From NCBI RefSeq assembly GCF_006345805.1, contig NC_043003.1, positions 1,178,001 to 1,242,000 on the forward strand: a DNA stretch of 64,000 bases. Direction: 5' to 3'. Positions within the stretch are counted from its first letter, which is position 1, and the number at the start of each line of letters is the position of its first letter. The notes beneath the pieces are model-generated. The model saw only the letters and a program-made list of their open reading frames with translations, was not told the origin of the DNA and did not search any database. The position numbers and the translations under genes are program-made. This document shows positions 4,101 to 56,365 of the stretch, piece by piece. This stretch comes from Octopus sinensis (Eukaryota).

Positions 4101-4305
4101 AACGGGAAGCTTTATGAAAATAAACAAAGACGAAGGCAGGTGGAAGACAAACGAACAATTGTATTAGTATGGCGCTCAGGAAATATAAATAAAACAAGTC
4201 TTTAACGTTTCGAGCCTACGCTCTTCAACAGAAAGATACACAGAGAGAGAAAAACACAGAGAAGGAGAGAAAAAAAATGCGTGCAGTAGCTAACGAATCA
4301 ACATG
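4101..4305 (-). mobile_element. PLE-like 3' terminal fragment between (TA)n arrays
   Basis: Short unique segment flanked by TA arrays, carrying a minimal HHR-like motif at 4199-4236. Confidence 0.55.
4199..4236 (-). ncRNA. Minimal type I hammerhead-like motif (variant core CUGUUGA)
   Basis: TCTTT-CTGTTGA-A-GAGC-GTAG-GCTC-GAAA-C-GTT-AAAGA: 5-bp stem I, 4-bp stem II, palindromic ACGT stem III (dimer type), with A6 changed to U. Confidence 0.6.
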
Positions 4306-10096: not shown

Positions 10097-10100
<4 letters not shown>

Positions 10101-10218
10101 AAATACAAACTGGACAAGAACGCAAAAACATTTAGAAGACGATACAAAAACACGGACGGGACATACGAAGCCTTCAATCTTCAGTCAAGAACCGGATCAT
10201 CCTCGCAATTTCGGCTGT
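10097..10218 (-). mobile_element. Truncated copy of the 27830-28235 module
   Basis: Minus strand CAGCCGAAATTGCGAGGATGATCCGGTTCTTGACTGAAGA matches 28099-28136. Confidence 0.7.
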
Positions 10219-10599: not shown

Positions 10600-10855
10600 A
10601 TCTACCGGTATTTAGCTGCCATTTTGCCTCCGTAATAGCTCAATGAGAATTGTTGTTACCGGTAACTTTCGACGCAGAGGCGCCGGTCCTCGACTTAGAG
10701 GCGTTGAAGTTTAAACTCCCATCCATTTCAGCAATGACCTGTGTTATATGCACTAAGCTTATTTTAGTTCCACCTACACACACACACACACATACACACA
10801 TATGCATTCACACATACACACACAAATAGATAGATAGATAGATAGATAGATAATA

Positions 10856-10906
<51 letters not shown>

Positions 10907-10907
<1 letters not shown>

Positions 10908-13900
10908 GTAAGGAAGGAGGCGTGACAATATTGACGATAGACTCAGCGGATAAACCGGTCGCCCCACACGTGACAGCAGTTGTTCGACACAAGCCCACAG
11001 GTCGGAAATTGTTGGACACTGCACGAGTGCGTGCAGAACGGTTTCGTCGCTCTGACCGCATCTCGGGCAGGTCGGCCCCGTGTTTCTCGAGCCATGCCTA
11101 TAGAGCTTATCCCGAACGGGTAGCGCTTCTCGGTAGCACCGCCAGGCCAGGGATCTCTGGAAGTTGTCCATAGGTCCCGGCCCGAAAGTCGCTTCAAACA
11201 GGCGGGTCAGGTATTCCTCGTCGACGCCCAGGTTTGCCCCAAGATCGTCGTCGTACCTCCCCTCCACTAATCCCCTATAGAATGCTTTGGTTGTGTTGAA
11301 GTCACTCAAGGTCGACCCGAGACGGCAGAGTTGCTTGAGAGCAACGCGACACTCGCGGTGCCATTCGCCCTTCCTCGGCCTCTTTTTGATCCACGACTGC
11401 AGTTCGGTCATGGAGACGAGTTGCGGGAATGCGTGCCTCACAAACGGCGACCACACCTGTTCACCGTCGTCTACATAGAGCCGGAGATGTCGCAGTCTCA
11501 GCGCGTGTCTGCGCATCATCAACCAAGGCATGCCCAGCCCTCCTTTTAACGGGTGTTGACAGCAAATGGATCGCTTGACCATCGGGACACATCCTTTCCA
11601 CAAGAAGCGGAAGAGAATGCGTTCTAGTTTGGTGATGGTAGGGTCGGGACAAGGTACGACGGTCAGACGGTAGTAGATGATGGACGCGATGTACGTGTTC
11701 GCCACCTCCGCCCGACCTTTTAGGGACAGTTTCCTCTCGGCCCATTGCCGGGCTAGAGTGACCACCCTACTCGTTATCTCGTTCCAGTTCTTCTCCATTT
11801 GGAGGTCCGGACCGAACCAAACCCCGAGCAACTCAACCGGGCCGTCCGTCCGGCGTCCAACGACGGAGGTACTGGTGGACGGCATGGGCTTGCTTCTCCA
11901 GGTGCCGAGCCGCAAGCCCACTGACTTTTCCCGGTTGATTTTCGCTCCTGTCACCGCTTTGTAGTTTTTCAGTGTCTCGCCGATCAGTTCGATGTGCTCG
12001 TGGCTTGACACTATGACGGTGACGTCGTCCGCGTGTGCAGACACGCTTGTCCCGCATCCCAATTCTCGCGGGATGCCCCTCAAAGTCGTCAGCTTCCGCA
12101 GTAGTGACTCGAGAGTCAATATGTATAGAAGCGACGAGAGGGGGCATCCCTGACGGACCGAACGTGCAATGTCGAAAGGTCTCGATGGATGTCCATTTCC
12201 GCAAACTACCGAACGGATGCCTCTGTACGAGGCAGCTATCCAGCCGCGGAGTACGGGACCGAAACCAGCCGCTCTCTGGACTGCCTCCAAGTATCAATGG
12301 TCTACCCTATCGAAGGCTTTCGATTGATCCAAGTTGATCAGGGCCCCACCCATGCCAGGTTCGTTAACTACCCTGTCTATGATGTAGCGCATCAGATGGA
12401 GGTTGTCATGGATGCTCCGGCCCGGCACGGCGCACGTTTGTGCCTTGTCGATCAGTTTCTCGATGACAAGCGGCAACCTCTTGGCTAACATCTTGGTCAA
12501 AATTTTCAGGTCTGCATTGAGCAGGGCGATTGGTCTAAAGTTATCTATAATGTCCCCCTTGTTTGGATCTGTCTTCAGCAGCGTTACGGCTCCTCGACTC
12601 ACAAAACCGGGTATGCTCCCGTTTTGCTGCCAGTTGCAGTATACCGCTGCCAAGACGTCTCCAAACAAGTCTGACATACATTTTAAAACTCGTAGGGCAG
12701 ACCATCCAAACCCGGGATTGTCTCTCGAGCATTCTGCCATTGCGTCCCGCACATCCGCCGCCGTGATGGCACCTTCGCAGCACTCTGCCTCTCTTGCCGA
12801 GAGTCGCGGTAGGCTGTGCAGGTAGGCACTGAAGTCCACCCTGCGTTGACGCTCGCCACTCGTCCCGTACATCTTGCCTCGCACATCTTGCTGGGCTCGA
12901 GCAATTCGCGCCCTTGTTCATCTACCAAAGACCGAATGGTGGCTTTGTTGCCCTGCTGCGCCTCCGCCACCCGGGCCTCCCTCACGGCTCCAATACCTTC
13001 CATCCTTAGAGCACGCATCCTAGCCCTGACAGCACACCCTTCGTGTTTGGCGTTGAAATGTTGGTCAAGGGCCAACCTCGCCGCTAAAACGTCGGATGTG
13101 TTGCCGCTTCTTATTGCCTCTTCTAACTTCTTAACTAACTCACCCTCTACTCTATTTCTATCTACGGTTAGTGCCTTGCTATATCTAGTTGTTTCCGCTT
13201 TTACTGCTCTCTTGAGGGCGAACCACCATTTGTTGTTGACAATGGCTCCCGTTAAAGCCCTTTTTACTAACGTGTTGATTCTGTCTCTGAAAACCTGTCT
13301 GGACGGGAAAGATGCGTTCAGTTTCCAGTAACCGGGACCCTGTCTATGTGCCTTATCTAAGTCTAGCGTACACGTCACGAATTTGTGATCCGTGTAGCTG
13401 ACTGTGTGGAATTGTGGACATCCTAAGTTATCCCTGTCTACTGTCCTACACAGTATCCTATCTAGATACGATCTCGACGACCCACTGCGGTTGCTCCATG
13501 TCCACGTTGGTGCATTTGGGTGGTCGATTCGGTACCTGTCAGACAGTTGGAATCGTCTGAGCAGGTCTCTGAGGCATTTGCACCCCCTTCTGTTTTTGTC
13601 TCTCCCCACATAGTCTAGATGCGTGTCCAAGGTAGCATTCCAATCCCCCACTAAAAGTAAAGGACGAGACGTTCCCAGGAATACTTCTAGACGTCGAAAG
13701 AAATCCGGCCGACCTGTTAAAGGCGTGCGTAGACTGATACTAGTCGAAAAGCGCACCCATTGCTGCCGTCGACATCCAGAACGACCAGTCTACCCTCCGG
13801 GTCTACGAATATCGTCTTGACTTCGAGATCCAGGCTCTTCTGAAAAAGTACCGCGGTGCCACTACCGCCCATCCTCGGCAGACAGGGAGAAAAATAAATG

Positions 13901-14006
13901 TTAAACTGTCCGCCAAACATGGACTTTAGGGCCCGTGGCTCGTGGAGTCTGGTCTCACTTATGGCTATGATTCCCAAATCGTGTGACTTGATGTCACACG
14001 CTTTGG

Positions 14007-14008
<2 letters not shown>
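10907..14008 (-). mobile_element. L1/Tx1-clade non-LTR retrotransposon ORF2 (APE endonuclease, RT, zinc knuckle), frameshifted and truncated at both ends
   Basis: APE motifs [27 protein letters not shown] motifs NFRPIALLNADLK, NLDQSKAFDRVDH, VRQGCPLS, HADD (mutated YADD). C-terminal CPRCGQSDETVLHALVQC. Split over ORFs 13717-13977, 12683-13756, 12294-12884 and 10764-12290. GC-rich island. Confidence 0.95.
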
Positions 14009-14104
<96 letters not shown>

Positions 14105-14148
14105 CAGACTGATAGATAGATAGATAGATAGATAGATTAGATAGATAG

Positions 14149-18805: not shown

Positions 18806-21190
18806 CCGGAGTAAACACATAATGTGAACAAGGTGGAAAAAAGAGTACTCAAATACCAGTGGTAGAGTAATATGCTTTATTTTAAGCAGCAGAAAATTCA
18901 ACAAAATCTGTTACTCTGAGTTTCTCGTTGCCGTTCATATCAGACATTTTTTGCTAGAATGGAACTGATATATCAATTCAATCTATACTCTAACAAACGC
19001 TACACCTTAAAAAGAAATGGACTTGTTTGATTGCCCTTTAGAAAAACGGTCAATCTTCGAGCGATAAACAAAAAGGTCAAAATATATGTATATATATATA
19101 AAAAACTTATAAAAATTATAAAATCCGAGGAAAAAACCTATTGCCGTTAATGAAGACAGTACAAATTAATGCATAGAAATTAAACCTGTTATAAATACTG
19201 CAACCATATTTATATTAAAATCTACATATATATATCAACATACACAAAAGGATGCGCGTAAACGCCATACATACATATACAGACGTATGAATATAAATCT
19301 AAATATACACATAAAAGCATGTGTACATATATTCACGCAAACCGTCTCGCACGCAAGCTAAAATTCATCTATGTAGCAATTCTCATATACTGAGCAAGGA
19401 GGGGGAACGAAAGAAAGGGAGAGAGAGAAAAAGGAACGAGGAGGGGTGGGGAAAAAACGAATAAGAAAAAAATTATGTATACAAGCAGTGTAACGCTATT
19501 ATTGGCATATATAGAGACCAGTATACATACACAAGTTTGAATGGATACATATACATACAGTCGTGTATATGTGTGCTTAAGCACAACATACTTTCACTTA
19601 CACATACACAGATACGCATGCTTACAAATACATATGCTTTGCTATACACATACTTATATAACATTCTAATTTTGACAACATGCTTTTTTTAAAAAAAACA
19701 TTGCTTTTAAAAATGGGTGCATTAATAAAAATATATACGAAAGACATATAAAATAAAATATAACACCTATTTTGGGTCATTTATAAATAATCAAGGTAAT
19801 ATAGATAATCAAGGTAATCCTATGCAATACAATAACATGAAAACAAAGTTTGTAGGTTTTTCCTAATATATATGTAGAAACATAAGACTTTGCTATACGG
19901 ATTAAGATCCGCATAGCTTGGAAACAAAAACAAAATCCATCGTAGCGCTCATCGTTCAAGAGTCAAAATCAAAATCAAAATTACAAAATATATACTCTAT
20001 CCATATGGTATATTTATATTCGACATTTTAAATTTAGCCGCGTGCCTACATAAGTTCATTAGCTCACTTCTTTGATTCAAAGAATTATTGTATTTGAATA
20101 AGATATACATTTTTTCTAATAGACAAAGCTTGCACTTGAAATTATTTTTGTGTGCTCCATGCCTGTATGGTGCCGCCCTGTCCAGAATGCTCCATGTCAC
20201 GTTGAAAGGTGGGGCTTCCTTTTCTTTTAGTTCCCAGACATATTTTGCTAGCTGTTTTCTTCCTATCTCTGGGTATTTAAATGAATTTTTATGAGAATAA
20301 AATCTTTTTTAAATGAATTTCTGAAGCCCCTGTGTATGTCTTGTATTCCGATGAGCCTTCCACTTGCACCTTGGCTCTATAAACTACTCCTTTCACTAGA
20401 CATTTCTCTTCTAACGGACAGGAGCTTTCGTTTTTGAAATTACATTTCTTAATGGGCTCGGCACCATGTCTAATCTCAATTAGCTTCCTATTATGTTGGC
20501 TAATGTAAGAGGCGAAATTTCTGCAACAAGTAGCTAACCTTCAGGGTTCTTCTATTAAATATTCTATAGAATTTATGACCCTGCTTAAAATGCTTAGAGA
20601 CTAATCTCAAAAATTCCTTACCTATATTAGTCTTACGGCCAAATTGAAAGCCGGGTTGAACCACAAAACTTTCCTGGTCCTAGTTCTTCGTGCAGCATTA
20701 TTATCAGCATTAGCTGGTTGAACTGGATCTTCTCAGAGAATCCACTATTCTTTAATGCGCTATCGTAATAAGGTGCAGCATTATGGAATGCTGCCTCGTC
20801 CGAAGAATTGAAGATATTCTTCTACCTACATTGCTGACTAAGTTCCTAAGGATAACTGGTGGATGGTTCGAATCTTTGCTAATATACGATAGCTTTTCAT
20901 TGGGCTTACGGAAAGGTTTAAATCTATCCGATCTTACATTAAAATTTACGTCTAAAAAATCTACACTATTCAGGTTAGCATCTATCGTAACCCGTAAGCC
21001 CATCCTTTGAAAGAAAGCTATAAGGTCCTTCCTAAGTCTATCTGATTCATGGCCGTTTAGATTATGCGTGGCTATAAGGCCGTCATCCCTATATAAACCT
21101 GCATCTATAAATGGGAATTCTATTTTTAGATTATGGAGAATAAAGGCTCCTATGAGCATACATAATTCAGCCCCGTCGTATGCCCCCATT
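18806..21190 (-). mobile_element. Hydra-clade-like PLE, 5'-truncated (RT C-half, GIY-YIG, presumed 3' UTR with degenerate HHR)
   Basis: RT MGAYDGAELC, GLYRDDGL, VDFLDV, SNHPP (20752-21189). Linker KVLWFNP..IGKEFL..KHF. Endonuclease CPLEEKCLVKGVVYRA..YTG..WSIL..CKLCLLEK..LNQRSEL..CRH (to 19997). TA arrays at both ends. Linking 18806-19997 to the element is inferred. Confidence 0.85.
18908..18947 (-). ncRNA. Degenerate minimal hammerhead-like motif
   Basis: TGT-CTGAT(AT)GA-A-CG-GCAA-CG-A-GAAA-CTC-A-GAG-TA-ACA: 2-nt insertion in the core, near-palindromic stem III, AATAAA about 25 nt downstream. Confidence 0.5.
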
Positions 21191-21227
21191 AAATTATTTT
21201 GTCAGCATTTCTTTCATTTCCTTTATA

Positions 21228-27797: not shown

Positions 27798-27829
<32 letters not shown>

Positions 27830-27830
<1 letters not shown>

Positions 27831-28232
27831 TACAGCCCCATACTCAACTCGTCCTGTCGAAAGACCCTTGTCCTACGTCCTGGTTTTGTTTTGTTGTTTT
27901 TTTTTATTTTTACCGTTATTGTTTTTTACGTTTTGTATTCTTATTGGTGTCACGTATTCTGTATTTGTTTCGTGTACTTCGTTTTCGTTTTCCGTCCTCG
28001 TGTTGTATACATTCGAAGCTTTCTTCCAGGGGATCTAATGCGCTTGGCTTAGATTTCCCTTGGCGGGCTGGCCATATCGGAGCAATCTCAAGATTAATCA
28101 GCCGAAATTGCTAATGATCTGGTTCTTGACTGATGACTGAGGGCTTCGAATGTCCCGGTCCTGTGGTTCTTGTGTCGTCTCTGTGGTGTTTTCATGTTCT
28201 TGTCCATGTCTGTAATTATTTTTTACTGTTTA

Positions 28233-28235
<3 letters not shown>
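27830..28235 (+). mobile_element. PLE-like 3' module between (TA)n arrays, with a structured ~145-nt core containing hammerhead strands
   Basis: Closing helix ACATTCGAAGC(28009)/GCTTCGAATGT(28153), GCAAT-C-TCAAGA, CAGCC-GAAA-TTGC, TCTTGA-CTGATGA. Related copies at 10097-10218 (-) and 56182-56365 (+). Confidence 0.65.
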
Positions 28236-28275
<40 letters not shown>

Positions 28276-28349
28276 TATATATATATTATATATATATATA
28301 TATAGTATATAATTACAAACATAAATACATACATACATACATGTTTTTT

Positions 28350-33449: not shown

Positions 33450-35315
33450 TATTAATAAAAGGAATTCCAACCTTGTCTGATTTTCACGTTTTATTTACAA
33501 TCTTATAATGATATATTATAAGATACTATATTATAATTGAATAAATAAAATGAAATAGTAGAATGTTAAATGTTCATTCTGATTGAACTAGTACTTTCAT
33601 GCATTAAATTCTGCAATCTTCGGGTTCATGTAGTAGTGTTGACAGTCATGCTTCACAATTTTTGACTGTAGCAAGATGATTGATTCTGTGCTATAAATAC
33701 AGCTGGGTAGGCTCCAGAGTGCTAGGTTTTGCAAACTGTATTCTGACCAATCAGTGTGTAGTGTCACTCAATTACTTAAGCTGATTGGTTGGTTGAGCTG
33801 ATTGGTTTAGGCATCACGCGTTGTTGGACATGTCAAGAGTCCTGTATCTTGACCCTGGCCGAAGCAGCAATTGTTGGGTTATTTTTAGAAATGTGTAAAT
33901 ATCCTTTGTCAGAGATTTTTATTTTTATATTTCAATTGTCATCATCATCATTGTCAGCACCTTAATTATTGTTGCTAGTGGTGATGGTGGTGGCAATAGA
34001 ACTTTTAACCCTAAGTAAGATAATTTTCCTGCTATCTTCATCTTGATCACCTTTAGTATTGTTGTTGTTGTTAGTGGTCATGGTCGTAGCAGTGGAAGTA
34101 ATACCTCTAAGTATTATTATTATTGCTTATTTAGCTTGGGTTCGAATTTATCAATAAAATTCTTTTCTCTGATTTTCCTCTCGATTTCACTTGGGCTGTG
34201 TAATTTGTAGAACGGAAATATTATATACATTTTCCGGCCACATGTTGCTAGGTGGTTACTCAAAGGTATCTGACGGACCTCTGGGTCTCTAATCTGTTGC
34301 CGGTGTACACGTGAGCGTTCTAATAGTGCGTTTCCCGTCTGACCTACATATATTTCTTCACAATTTGGGCATTTGATGCAGTAAATTAAATTTCTGCTTT
34401 TGCAGTTCATATTCGCGTTTGTGAATATTTTCCCGGTTTTTGTGTTTATATATTGACCGGTATGTATGAATTGGCATGTGCCACATCGGCTATCATTGCA
34501 TTTAGATACCGTGAATGTTTGGTCTTTGTTGCTAAGGTCAAATTTTGCCTTTGTTAGTAATGTTTTCAAGTTTTTAGGCTGTCTTTACTAAGTACCATAG
34601 CTCGATCCGTGATTATGTCTTTTAATTCATTACTTTGGGCAATGATTGGTAGGTTTGCTTTGGCAATGTTGAAGATATTCTGGTGACATGGGTTGTGTGT
34701 CACTATGAATGGTATGACTTGTTCTTGTTTTCCTCTTCCTTGGGTTGTCCTAAGTTGTTGTATGGGTATTTTATAGCCCGCTGTATGCCATTTTCTATAT
34801 GTAGAGATGGGTATTTTGTTTTTGAGCAAAAATTCTCTTAGTTCTATTAGGCGTTTGTTCCTGATATTTGCATCTTCTACAATGGTACAAATTCTTCTGG
34901 CTAGGCAGTATGGGATGTTACGTTTTGTATGTGGTGGATGGCACGACTTAAAATTTAGGTATTGATGTGTGTCTGTGTGTTTATAGTATATATCTGTGGT
35001 GATGGTGGTGTCTTTTTTAATTACCATTATATCTAGGAATGGTAATTTGGTACTACTCATCTCCTTTGTAAATTGGAGAGATGAGTGTAGGTTGTTCAGG
35101 AGGATATTAAACTCTTCCAGAGTATTTAGAGATTCTGTCCAGATTATGAAGAGTCGTCTCTTCCATGCCTTTTCAATATACTTTCTTTTAACATTTAACA
35201 TTCTACTATTTCATTTTATTTTATTCAATTATAATATATTATCTTATAATGTATCATTATAAGATTGTAAATAAAACGTGAAAATCAGACAAGGTTGGAA
35301 TTCCTTTTATTAATA
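33450..35315 (-). mobile_element. Naiad/Neptune-type PLE, 5'-truncated, with an inverted copy of its 3' terminus
   Basis: RT thumb LPFLDI..TDIYYKHTDTHQYL..SCHPPH..IPYCLARRI (34566-35160). CxxxRCxTC linker and GIY-YIG LIYCIKCPNCEEIYVGQT..PKLN (34120-34569). 33450-33574 is the reverse complement of ~35190-35315. Confidence 0.92.
33584..33628 (-). ncRNA. Minimal type I hammerhead in the PLE 3' UTR (U4 changed to C)
   Basis: TGAAC-CCGAAGA-T-TGCA-GAATTTAA-TGCA-T-GAAA-GTAC-TA-GTTCA, with palindromic stem III AGTACT. Confidence 0.75.
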
Positions 35316-52701: not shown

Positions 52702-53115
52702 AGGGCGGCGAGCTGGCAGAAACGTTAACACACCGGGCGAAATGCTTAGCGGTATTTCGTCTGCCGCTACGTTCTGAGTTCAAATTCCGCCGAGGTCGAC
52801 TTTGCCATTCATCCTTTCGGGGTCGATCAAATAAGTACCAGTTACGCACTGGGGTCGATATAATCGACTTAATCCCTTTGTCTGTCTTTGTTTATCCTCT
52901 CTGTGTGTAGCCCCTTGTGGGTAGTAAAGAAGTAGGTATTTCGTCTGCCGCTACGTTCTGAGTTCAAATTCCGCCGAGGTCGACTTTGCCATTCATCCTT
53001 TCGGGGTCGATCAAATAAGTACCAGTTACTCACTGGGGTCGATATAATCGACTTAATCCCTTTGTCTGTCCTTGTTTTTCTCCTCTATGTTTAGCCCTCA
53101 TGTGGGCAATAAAGA
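52702..53115 (+). mobile_element. SINE family B with a tandem head-less second unit
   Basis: 52751-52934 is repeated at 52935-53118. Confidence 0.85.
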
Positions 53116-53794
53116 AATAGATATTTATTCTTTGGATGAAGAGTTCACCCTTACGCCGACAATAAGAGTTATTCAGACATTCAAACTGTTGAAAGTGAAG
53201 AGGAAAGTAATGAGACGAATGAACGAATACGGTTGTTGAGCGATCAGCCAATTATTGATATTCTCACGGATTTTTTTTTTTTTTGTGAATCTGTCCACAA
53301 TCGATAATCTTGAACGGTATATGCAACTATTTATCTGTTTACTAAGGAGCCAAGGTGGAAGGTAAAGTTAGACACCGGTGCCCGAGTGTGAGAGGATTAA
53401 TTTTCATTTGGCAACAGTAATCTCATTATCAGCCAGTACCAGTCGCTCTGACAAGAAACCTCAAACAACAGAAACCAATGAAGTGATTGCAGTTTATTTG
53501 CTCACACAGCAATTATCATAAATGGAAAGAAACAACAATTGTCACGCTCTGGCCGAGGTCATCAGGTCCACCTTTTTTGTAGCCACCGCCAGAATCTACA
53601 ACCGTACAAAGAAACAGAGAGCTTCTATGTGGTCATCCGTTCTGCGAAAATAGCTGAATCGTCATCAAATTTCACCCTATTGTTTTTAAAAGAGAAGGGC
53701 ACATGAGATAAGATAGTCCCCAATATGCAAAATGCCAGGATAGGCTTTTATATGTAAGATATACATGAGTCGTGCACAAATTTTTTTAAAATAG

Positions 53795-56181: not shown

Positions 56182-56365
56182 TCAGATTGGAGCAATCTCA
56201 AGGATAATCAGCCGAAATTGCGGGGATAATCTGGTGCTTGACTGAGGAAAGAAAACTTCGAATGACCCGTCCTTGTTTCCTTGTATCGTCTATCTGGATG
56301 TTTTGTTGTCCCTTTTTGTATCACCTAGCTGGCCGGATGTTTTGCGTTCTTGTCCCATTTTGTAT
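56182..56365 (+). mobile_element. Third copy of the 27830-28235 module
   Basis: GGAGCAATCTCAAG..AATCAGCCGAAATTGC..ATCTGGT.CTTGACTGAGGA. Confidence 0.75.

What the first reader, a model, noticed from the sequence alone, without database searches (positions are those of the whole stretch)
28009..28153. Repeated module with the three hammerhead core strands in non-canonical order
Seen: GCAAU-C-UCAAGA (stem III strand, AUC triplet, stem I strand), then UCAGCC-GAAA-UUGC, then UCUUGA-CUGAUGA. Stem III (GCAAU/AUUGC) and stem I (UCAAG/CUUGA) join the core in exact HHR register. The order is the reverse of types I, II and III, so folding would need a pseudoknot or an intermolecular dimer. The same arrangement recurs at 56190-56248, and in truncated form at 10170-10217 (-), with core N7 varying (U, G, A) as it does in real HHRs. 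Stem II is ambiguous: candidates are upstream GGCUG or downstream CUGA/GGCU, and the downstream ones fail in the 56 kb copy. An 11-bp helix closes the domain. Inference: a possibly new HHR topology.
Basis: partly seen in the sequence, partly recalled or inferred. Interest (0 to 1): 0.8.

Follow-up and report, generated by a model that had tools for sequence, protein, structure and literature searches.

The report
Scrambled self-cutting RNA in animal retroelement
A repeat family with over ten thousand copies in this animal genome carries all the parts of a hammerhead self-cutting RNA in a knotted order, with one helix strand moved off a backbone link that published hammerheads keep intact; it likely cuts its own transcript into the templates for new copies, and would be a layout our literature searches did not find.

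Summary
The three window copies belong to a non-coding repeat of 700-850-nt tandem units (10,541 genome matches, 105 in the control). The strand order site-GAAA-CUGANGA is not new: it is type SGC (Eckert et al. 2023), whose SGC examples came from no named organism. The ambiguous stem II is resolved, and this is the new part. Its 5' strand lies upstream (28066-28070), paired in 337 of 360 cells with three compensated pairs, against 38 of 288 directly after CUGANGA. The strand after A9 instead closes a long helix beside a hairpin, so the core is opened between A9 and G10.1 into a predicted four-way junction. Eckert assumed that link cannot be interrupted. Stems I, III and the SGC-type interaction helix also covary; 0 of 14 core columns differ between subfamilies (60 of 142 elsewhere). 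Insertions end in (TA)n, are 5'-truncated, tandem and sometimes inverted, like Penelope-driven retrozymes. Their 5' ends pile up in the 21 nt just after the predicted cut (24 of 80; replicated 22 of 119, 3.2-fold), an indirect sign of cleaved templates. Cleavage itself is untested. Verdict: new variant of a known kind.

The parts
27833..28234 (+). 5'-truncated copy (about 400 nt) of the 778-nt unit of young subfamily A, between (TA)n runs at 27798-27832 and 28235-28311
28009..28023 (+). 5' strand of closing helix P0
28026..28063 (+). Hairpin P5, abutting P0 and leading into G10.1
   Evidence: (3 of 7 outer pairs changed on both sides)
28066..28070 (+). Stem II 5' strand (G10.1 = 28066), displaced upstream of the cleavage block
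   Evidence: 337 of 360 cells paired, 3 of 5 pairs compensated in subfamily D
28072..28078 (+). Interaction helix P4, 5' strand (one U-C mismatch in subfamily A)
28082..28093 (+). Block S: stem III strand, AUC triplet, stem I strand; predicted cut between 28087 and 28088
   Evidence: 5'-end pile-up
28099..28111 (+). Block G: stem II 3' strand with C11.1, GAAA, stem III strand
28116..28122 (+). Interaction helix P4, 3' strand
28124..28136 (+). Block C without its stem II strand: stem I strand and CUGAUGA (A9 = 28136)
28139..28153 (+). 3' strand of closing helix P0, following A9 after 2 nt
56183..56365 (+). Subfamily B copy, truncated 5' of block S; predicted cut site after 56197
10100..10217 (-). 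Subfamily C copy starting about 12 nt 3' of the predicted cut

Best explanation
This is a hammerhead core in the knotted site-GAAA-CUGANGA order whose stem II 5' strand lies upstream, predicted to open the core between A9 and G10.1 into a four-way junction; it sits in every unit of a non-coding, (TA)n-inserting tandem repeat and likely cuts the transcript into unit-length RNAs that a Penelope-like element's enzymes likely copy back into the genome. Shown: core bases, strand order, covarying helices I, II, III, P4, P0 and P5, copy number, fixed 3' end at (TA)n, 5' truncations, tandems and inversions, and a pile-up of 5' ends just 3' of 28087. Inferred: the monomer folds with P0 and P5 stacked on each other and stem II stacked on the A9-G12 pair. 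P4 does the job of the SGC interaction helix. G12 and the G8 2'-OH catalyse cleavage after C17, as in other hammerheads. Reverse transcription primes at the unit's own UA tract on a genomic (TA)n target. Cleaved linear templates give short copies that stop near the cut, while re-ligated circles or uncut multimers give the copies that run through it and form tandems.
For: Stem II upstream: 40/40, 117/120, 48/50 and 132/150 cells paired in subfamilies A-D, with GGCUG/CAGCC changing to GGGCA/UGCCC; directly after A9: 38 of 288. Whole structure without P4 on 72 copies: 90.8% paired, shuffled 85.2% (0 of 500 reach it), slid partners 30-53%, 18 of 41 pairs changed on both sides. P4 is compensated in B and C and H. 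Subfamily H adds a base pair to stem III on both strands, changes two stem I pairs and has H17=A. Among 139 parsed copies H17 is C 123, A 10, U 5, G 1 and N7 takes all four bases. Core columns differing between subfamily modes: 0 of 14 against 60 of 142. Five natural units are 76.7% alike in the domain and 56.2% upstream of it. 5' ends in +1..+21: 24 of 80 (8.3-fold over -1..-100) and, out of sample, 22 of 119 (3.2-fold, p 1e-4); R2 junctions vary the same way at a ribozyme cut (PMC3774820, abstract). (TA)3 after the 3' end in 51 of 70 and 44 of 50 copies, background 18%. SGC and CSG forms with the same short links cleave in vitro (PMC10085705).
Against: No cleavage assay. Contigs of public runs show no pile-up of ends at the cut (contigs cannot show ends). 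No published hammerhead with helices between A9 and G10.1 was found to vouch for activity. Subfamilies are related, so compensations are a handful of events, mostly on the A-C versus D branch, and the p values are nominal. The +1..+21 window was picked on the discovery set; B/F alone is weak (p 0.03; 0.09 against the 21 nt upstream). Most ends lie 5-12 nt after the cut in a partly AT-rich linker, few exactly on it. 147 of 199 insertions run through the cut. A downstream GGCU can also pair 4 bp in A and C (194 of 288 cells overall). The nested fold of a D copy did not recover P5 as drawn, and only two of five folds had z below -2. No autonomous partner sharing sequence was found: 30 loci of one Penelope-like family carry an ordinary minimal hammerhead and no likeness to the unit.
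Confidence: 0.78

Rival explanations
1. Ordinary type-SGC hammerhead: stem II uses the strand after CUGANGA (CUGA, or GGCU five bases on), so block C is whole or merely bulged.
For: Both pairings are perfect in subfamily A (32/32 each) and nearly so in C (36/40, 39/40); 58 of 139 copies offer 4 bp at a 3-8 nt offset.
Against: They fail in B (46/96, 50/96) and D (33/120, 73/120); the CUGA register leaves C11.1 unpaired; that strand pairs into P0 in all subfamilies and in 5 of 5 folds; only 4 of 139 copies offer 4 bp within 2 nt of A9.
Confidence: 0.05
2. Same pairings, but formed between two units (domain-swapped dimer in a tandem transcript), as in dimeric Penelope and newt hammerheads; the monomer is inactive.
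For: Units occur in tandems of 2-4; dimeric activity is described for Penelope and axolotl hammerheads (PMC4209133, PMC7229834). Covariation cannot tell cis from trans.
Against: All links between blocks are short and match monomeric SGC/CSG forms; P0 clamps both ends of one domain; no palindromic swap helix is needed. Even in a dimer A9 and G10.1 stay unlinked.
Confidence: 0.08
3. The fold is real and selected but does not cleave, or does so rarely; it serves as the recognition or packaging signal for the helper reverse transcriptase, and the 5'-end pile-up comes from polymerase stalling at the knot, microhomology with TA, or a transcription start.
For: No direct sign of cleavage; 147 of 199 insertions pass the site; some ends at +12..+21 lie on stems II and III.
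Against: Every catalytic base, the UH rule and G10.1-C11.1 are kept while N7 drifts. The peak has an edge at the cut (46 ends in +1..+21, 8 in -1..-21), recurs in D where the linker is less TA-like (12 of 69), and the very AT-rich stretch at -101..-250 has a quarter of the rate.
Confidence: 0.08
4. Chance arrangement carried along by a repeat.
For: A loose scan finds one unrelated arrangement in the window.
Against: Compensated changes in all six helices, a two-sided insertion in stem III, invariant core.
Confidence: 0.01

Closest known systems
Type-SGC hammerhead (HRIMA-1 motif and variants), Eckert et al. 2023, PMC10085705
   Same: Order S, G, C; short link from stem I to stem II; an extra helix joining the far sides of stems I and II; pseudoknotted core.
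   Different: Stem II 5' strand and its interaction strand sit upstream, so block C is split at A9/G10.1 with helices P0 and P5 there; their search pattern demands CUGAUGA(U)G plus stem II and cannot match. Their SGC examples came from no genome of a known organism; this is a >10,000-copy animal repeat.
Type-CSG hammerhead (two sequences, same paper)
   Same: Stem II 5' strand runs into block S through a short link.
   Different: There stem I and CUGAnGA precede that strand; here they come last. This RNA has both the SGC and CSG links and opens the ring inside block C.
Pseudoknot (PK) hammerhead, Zhan et al. 2024, PMC11300833
   Same: Hammerhead core rebuilt with pseudoknot and an extra helix, catalysis kept.
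   Different: Described with A9-G12 and G10.1-C11.1 forming the short stem of one loop; different connectivity, pistol-like.
Non-LTR retrozymes of animals (Cervera and de la Pena 2020, PMC7229834; Li et al. 2026, 10.64898/2026.07.22.740005)
   Same: Non-coding tandem units with one hammerhead each, thousands of copies, alongside Penelope-like elements.
   Different: Defined and searched by type I hammerheads; units here are 690-870 nt with a permuted ribozyme those descriptors would miss. Circular RNA not shown here.
Penelope-like elements (Craig et al. 2021, 10.1101/2021.04.23.441226; Cervera and de la Pena 2014, PMC4209133)
   Same: 5' truncation, partial tandems, inverted truncated copies, (TA)n targets, ribozyme near the 3' end.
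   Different: No RT or GIY-YIG frame; the autonomous family checked here has a minimal type I hammerhead and unrelated sequence.

Membership tests
Hammerhead ribozyme | CUGANGA, GAAA and UH core | tested here: met
   0 of 14 core columns differ between subfamilies A-D; H17 and N7 counts
Hammerhead ribozyme | Stems I, II, III in register, with covariation; G10.1-C11.1 | tested here: met
Hammerhead ribozyme | A9 within 0-2 nt of stem II on one strand (Eckert's block C) | tested here: not met
   38 of 288 cells paired in strict register, 76 of 288 at +1 and 75 of 288 at +2
Hammerhead ribozyme | Self-cleavage after H17 | not testable with these tools
   indirect only: 5'-end pile-up
Hammerhead types I-III (Rfam models) | Circular block order; Rfam match | tested here: not met
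   order reversed; no match
Type-SGC hammerhead | Order S, G, C with S-G link up to 8 nt and G-C spacer up to 15 nt | tested here: met
   5 nt and 12 nt in the window copy; limits from the supplement pattern
Type-SGC hammerhead | Interaction helix joining far sides of stems I and II | tested here: met
   P4: 48/56, 165/168, 64/70, and 165/210 in D's own register; H
Type-SGC hammerhead | Stem II strand directly 3' of CUGAnGA | tested here: not met
Non-LTR retrozyme | Non-coding tandem units, one hammerhead each | tested here: met
Non-LTR retrozyme | Type I hammerhead | tested here: not met
   permuted form
Non-LTR retrozyme | Unit-length linear and circular RNA | tested here: inconclusive
   only contigs of runs guessed to be RNA were on hand
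Penelope-like element | 5' truncation, partial tandems, inverted copies, microsatellite target | tested here: met
Penelope-like element | RT and GIY-YIG reading frame | tested here: not met
   no such frame inside units; frames near copies belong to separate insertions with their own ends
Penelope-like element | Autonomous partner sharing the 3' end | tested here: inconclusive
   one family checked, 30 loci, no shared sequence

The most novel reading that the evidence does not exclude
A working monomeric hammerhead of a topology outside the six permutations thought possible: the catalytic strand ends at A9, stem II is supplied by a fourth strand, and a four-way junction sits in the core. It is the first non-circularly permuted ribozyme in an animal genome, it drives a retrozyme family of more than 10,000 copies, and the insertion junctions record its cut.
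Probability: 0.7. Interest if true: 0.87.

Novelty: new variant of a known kind. Interest (0 to 1): 0.78.

Why it matters
It breaks the stated assumption that the CUGANGA block and stem II cannot be separated, which set the count of possible hammerhead permutations at six and shaped the search patterns. Ribozymes opened at A9/G10.1 would have been missed in genome scans, so retroelements scored as ribozyme-free deserve a second scan. It moves non-circular RNA permutations from unnamed environmental RNAs into an animal genome with several natural subfamilies to test. The junction pile-up offers a genome-only way to ask whether retrozymes insert from cut linear RNA or from circles. A core that tolerates two helices at A9 is also a new insertion point for engineered switches.

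Tried and rejected
Rfam: nothing relevant. Downstream stem II registers: rejected. One search had off-by-one coordinates for stems I, II, P4 and the core; only its P0, P5 and stem III rows are used, the rest were redone. P4 was left out because MAFFT sets subfamily D one column off there. Sequencing runs: no holder on record as RNA was listed. Contigs of 7 distinct runs were laid: they cover the domain, no ends pile up, and one contig starts at 28088 among many other starts, which is no evidence. The depth rise near the cut is explained by other subfamilies aligning only in the core. Some loose ends in X5 look like template-switch adaptor (recalled label), none seen at the cut. Tandem spacing of 3-5 kb at L195-L198 was a local duplication of one truncated copy, not an autonomous element. 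Penelope-type frames near copies (L068, L074, L168) are separate insertions. The family pattern found 0 matches in metagenome and viral contigs; it is family-specific, so this says nothing of the topology elsewhere. PDB sequence search with a GIY-YIG piece: 0. Random sampling, 2 copies in 399,900 bases, agrees with the pattern count but is too thin to use. Weinberg 2015 and Lunse 2017 were not held, so hammerhead variants drawn there are known to me only through PMC11300833 and citations.

Full report
Observation. The window lies in a 2.7-Gb animal assembly; from the look of its SINEs I take it for an octopus, a recalled and untested label. Rfam has no match.

The repeat. The 28-kb copy belongs to a young subfamily A whose 40 best-scored matches are all 98% or more identical. 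It has a unit of about 778 nt, a fixed 3' end, variable 5' ends and partial tandems. Searches with the other copies and with divergent neighbours gave subfamilies B, C and D, E (1,088 matches, 0 in the control), F and H. A pattern spanning GAAA to CUGANGA matches 10,541 places against 105 for the reversed control. Units are homologous over their length, non-coding, about 690-870 nt, in arrays of up to four. (TA)3 follows the 3' end in 51 of 70 D and 44 of 50 B/F copies, against 18% of random windows. Inverted truncated pieces abut several copies. These are the insertion marks described for Penelope-like elements (Craig et al., passages read). Such elements are abundant here, but the one family checked carries an ordinary minimal type I hammerhead and shares no sequence with the unit (30 loci). 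The helper is therefore inferred, not found.

Structure. I aligned 72 of the 79 distinct full-length copies then held (two A, three B and two D rows left out, among them copies with deletions or insertions; two rows first classed C were counted with B). The strand before GAAA pairs with an upstream strand (28066-28070): 40/40, 117/120, 48/50 and 132/150 cells in A-D, with three of five pairs changed on both sides in D and G10.1-C11.1 kept. In the register directly after A9 only 38 of 288 cells pair. The two downstream candidates work in A and C but fail in B and D (147 and 194 of 288). The strand after A9 pairs instead with the 5' strand of P0, which abuts hairpin P5, whose 3' strand runs into G10.1 (P0 appears in 5 of 5 nested folds, P5 as drawn in 4 of 5). 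A further helix P4 joins the strand just 3' of the stem II strand to the strand just 5' of stem I and is compensated in B, C and H. For 41 pairs without P4, 90.8% of cells pair (shuffles 85.2%, 0 of 500 reach it; slid partners 30-53%), and 18 pairs have two-sided changes. Subfamily H has an extra base pair in stem III, two changed pairs in stem I and A at position 17. An alignment-free parse of all held loci gave 139 distinct copies, selected for stems I and III of 4 bp or more and including a few chance hits. It shows several compensated forms of stems I and III, H17 as G once only and N7 free. The upstream stem II is complete in 95 of 139 copies, against 4 of 139 with 4 bp within 2 nt of A9. 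No core column differs between the modes of A-D (0 of 14; 60 of 142 elsewhere; one-sided p 0.0008, nominal because the subfamilies are kin). The number of independent compensation events is small, about a dozen, many on one branch.

Indirect sign of cleavage. I took insertions anchored only downstream of the predicted cut (first 100 matches, 82 insertions, 81 held; one rearranged copy dropped; eight H ends set by hand) and mapped their 5' ends. 24 of 80 fall in +1..+21, 8.3 times the rate in -1..-100; that window was chosen after seeing these data. Out of sample (70 D and 50 B/F loci, one internal deletion dropped) 22 of 119 fall there, 3.2-fold, p 1e-4; D alone 12 of 69 (p 8e-4), B/F alone 10 of 50 (p 0.03). 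Overall 46 ends lie in the 21 nt after the cut, 8 in the 21 before and 6 in the next 23 nt downstream. This fits a reverse transcriptase running off a cleaved 5' end, with second-strand priming by microhomology, as proposed for R2 (PMC3774820, abstract only). Against it: most ends are 5-12 nt inside, part of that linker is AT-rich, stalling or a transcription start are not excluded, and 147 of 199 insertions run through the site, which requires circles or uncut multimers. Public contigs could not show ends.

Mechanism. Best reading: the transcript folds a monomeric, pseudoknotted hammerhead and cuts after C17 by the usual G12/G8 chemistry (as in PMC11300833, parts 1-3 of 6 read). In it A9 leaves into P0 and G10.1 arrives from P5, with 0-2 unpaired bases at each turn, giving a predicted four-way junction. 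Unit-length RNAs, linear or ligated, are copied in by a Penelope-type RT primed at (TA)n. Pairings and insertion anatomy are shown; fold geometry, cleavage, circles and helper are inferred.

Comparison. Eckert et al. 2023 (PMC10085705; abstract, introduction, methods, results and first part of the discussion read; supplement by term search only) describe order SGC, show cleavage and an interaction helix placed as P4 is here. [quoted passage not shown] Their patterns need CUGAUGA(U)G plus stem II; the supplement has no hit for Octopus, Eukaryota, Mollusca or Metazoa. This RNA works like SGC/CSG but fails SGC membership on that one feature: it opens the same ring at a new point. Animal retrozymes are described with type I hammerheads only (PMC7229834, passages; Li et al. 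2026, parts 1-2 of 5). A single extra base 5' of stem II is known (PMC4209133, part 1 of 4). Searches that found no report of this layout or of a permuted hammerhead in an animal. A 2026 paper mentions variants with additional helices (PMC13725137, passage and references). Of its three sources I read Eckert and passages of Forgia 2023 (nothing relevant), but Weinberg 2015 was not held, so a similar core insertion there cannot be excluded. An unchecked note of this scan reports a phage hammerhead opened at the same link (e1-5861566), a lead only.

Verdict. Real, conserved by selection on the source elements, probably catalytic; a new variant of a rare known kind. Interest 0.78.

Noticed in passing
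L231-L260 (e.g. L232); L168: A young, high-copy Penelope-like family with a Cys-rich linker before GIY-YIG (Neptune-type, recalled label); open frames up to about 790 aa. Its minimal type I hammerhead has the U3-A8 core swap reported for Schistosoma elements.
   Followed up: partly
window 33500-35210 (-): Penelope-like fragment: GIY-YIG (PF01541) with an upstream RT-like frame and a decayed canonical-order minimal hammerhead near 33600-33630.
   Followed up: partly
window about 4200-4231 (-): Canonical-order minimal hammerhead-like end of another Penelope-type element, similar to the end in L068.
   Followed up: no
window 20755-21201 (-); L095: RT fragment resembling Naiad-type Penelope elements (recalled motif; no Pfam hit for the window piece).
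   Followed up: no
window 10767-14136 (-): Frameshifted LINE with endonuclease, RT and zf-RVT domains.
   Followed up: no
window 52751-53126: Head-to-tail dimer of a 184-bp SINE-like unit.
   Followed up: no
L005, L162, L074, L083, L149 (mid-unit): A CACGTG/CATGTG box followed by GAC, and an GCCAG block further on, are kept in all five units while the surrounding sequence drifts; possible internal promoter.
   Followed up: no
L166, L167, L169, L171, L178-L180: A branch of subfamily E has a 20-nt duplication inside hairpin P5, suggesting P5 length is free.
   Followed up: no
G000:C1:5163000-5183000 (L195-L198, L211-L212): Four near-identical truncated copies 3-5 kb apart, from a local duplication.
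   Followed up: partly
tandem junctions in L005, L010, L074, L083: Each unit carries its own short TA run at the junction, so the RNA would hold the tract that matches the genomic target.
   Followed up: partly
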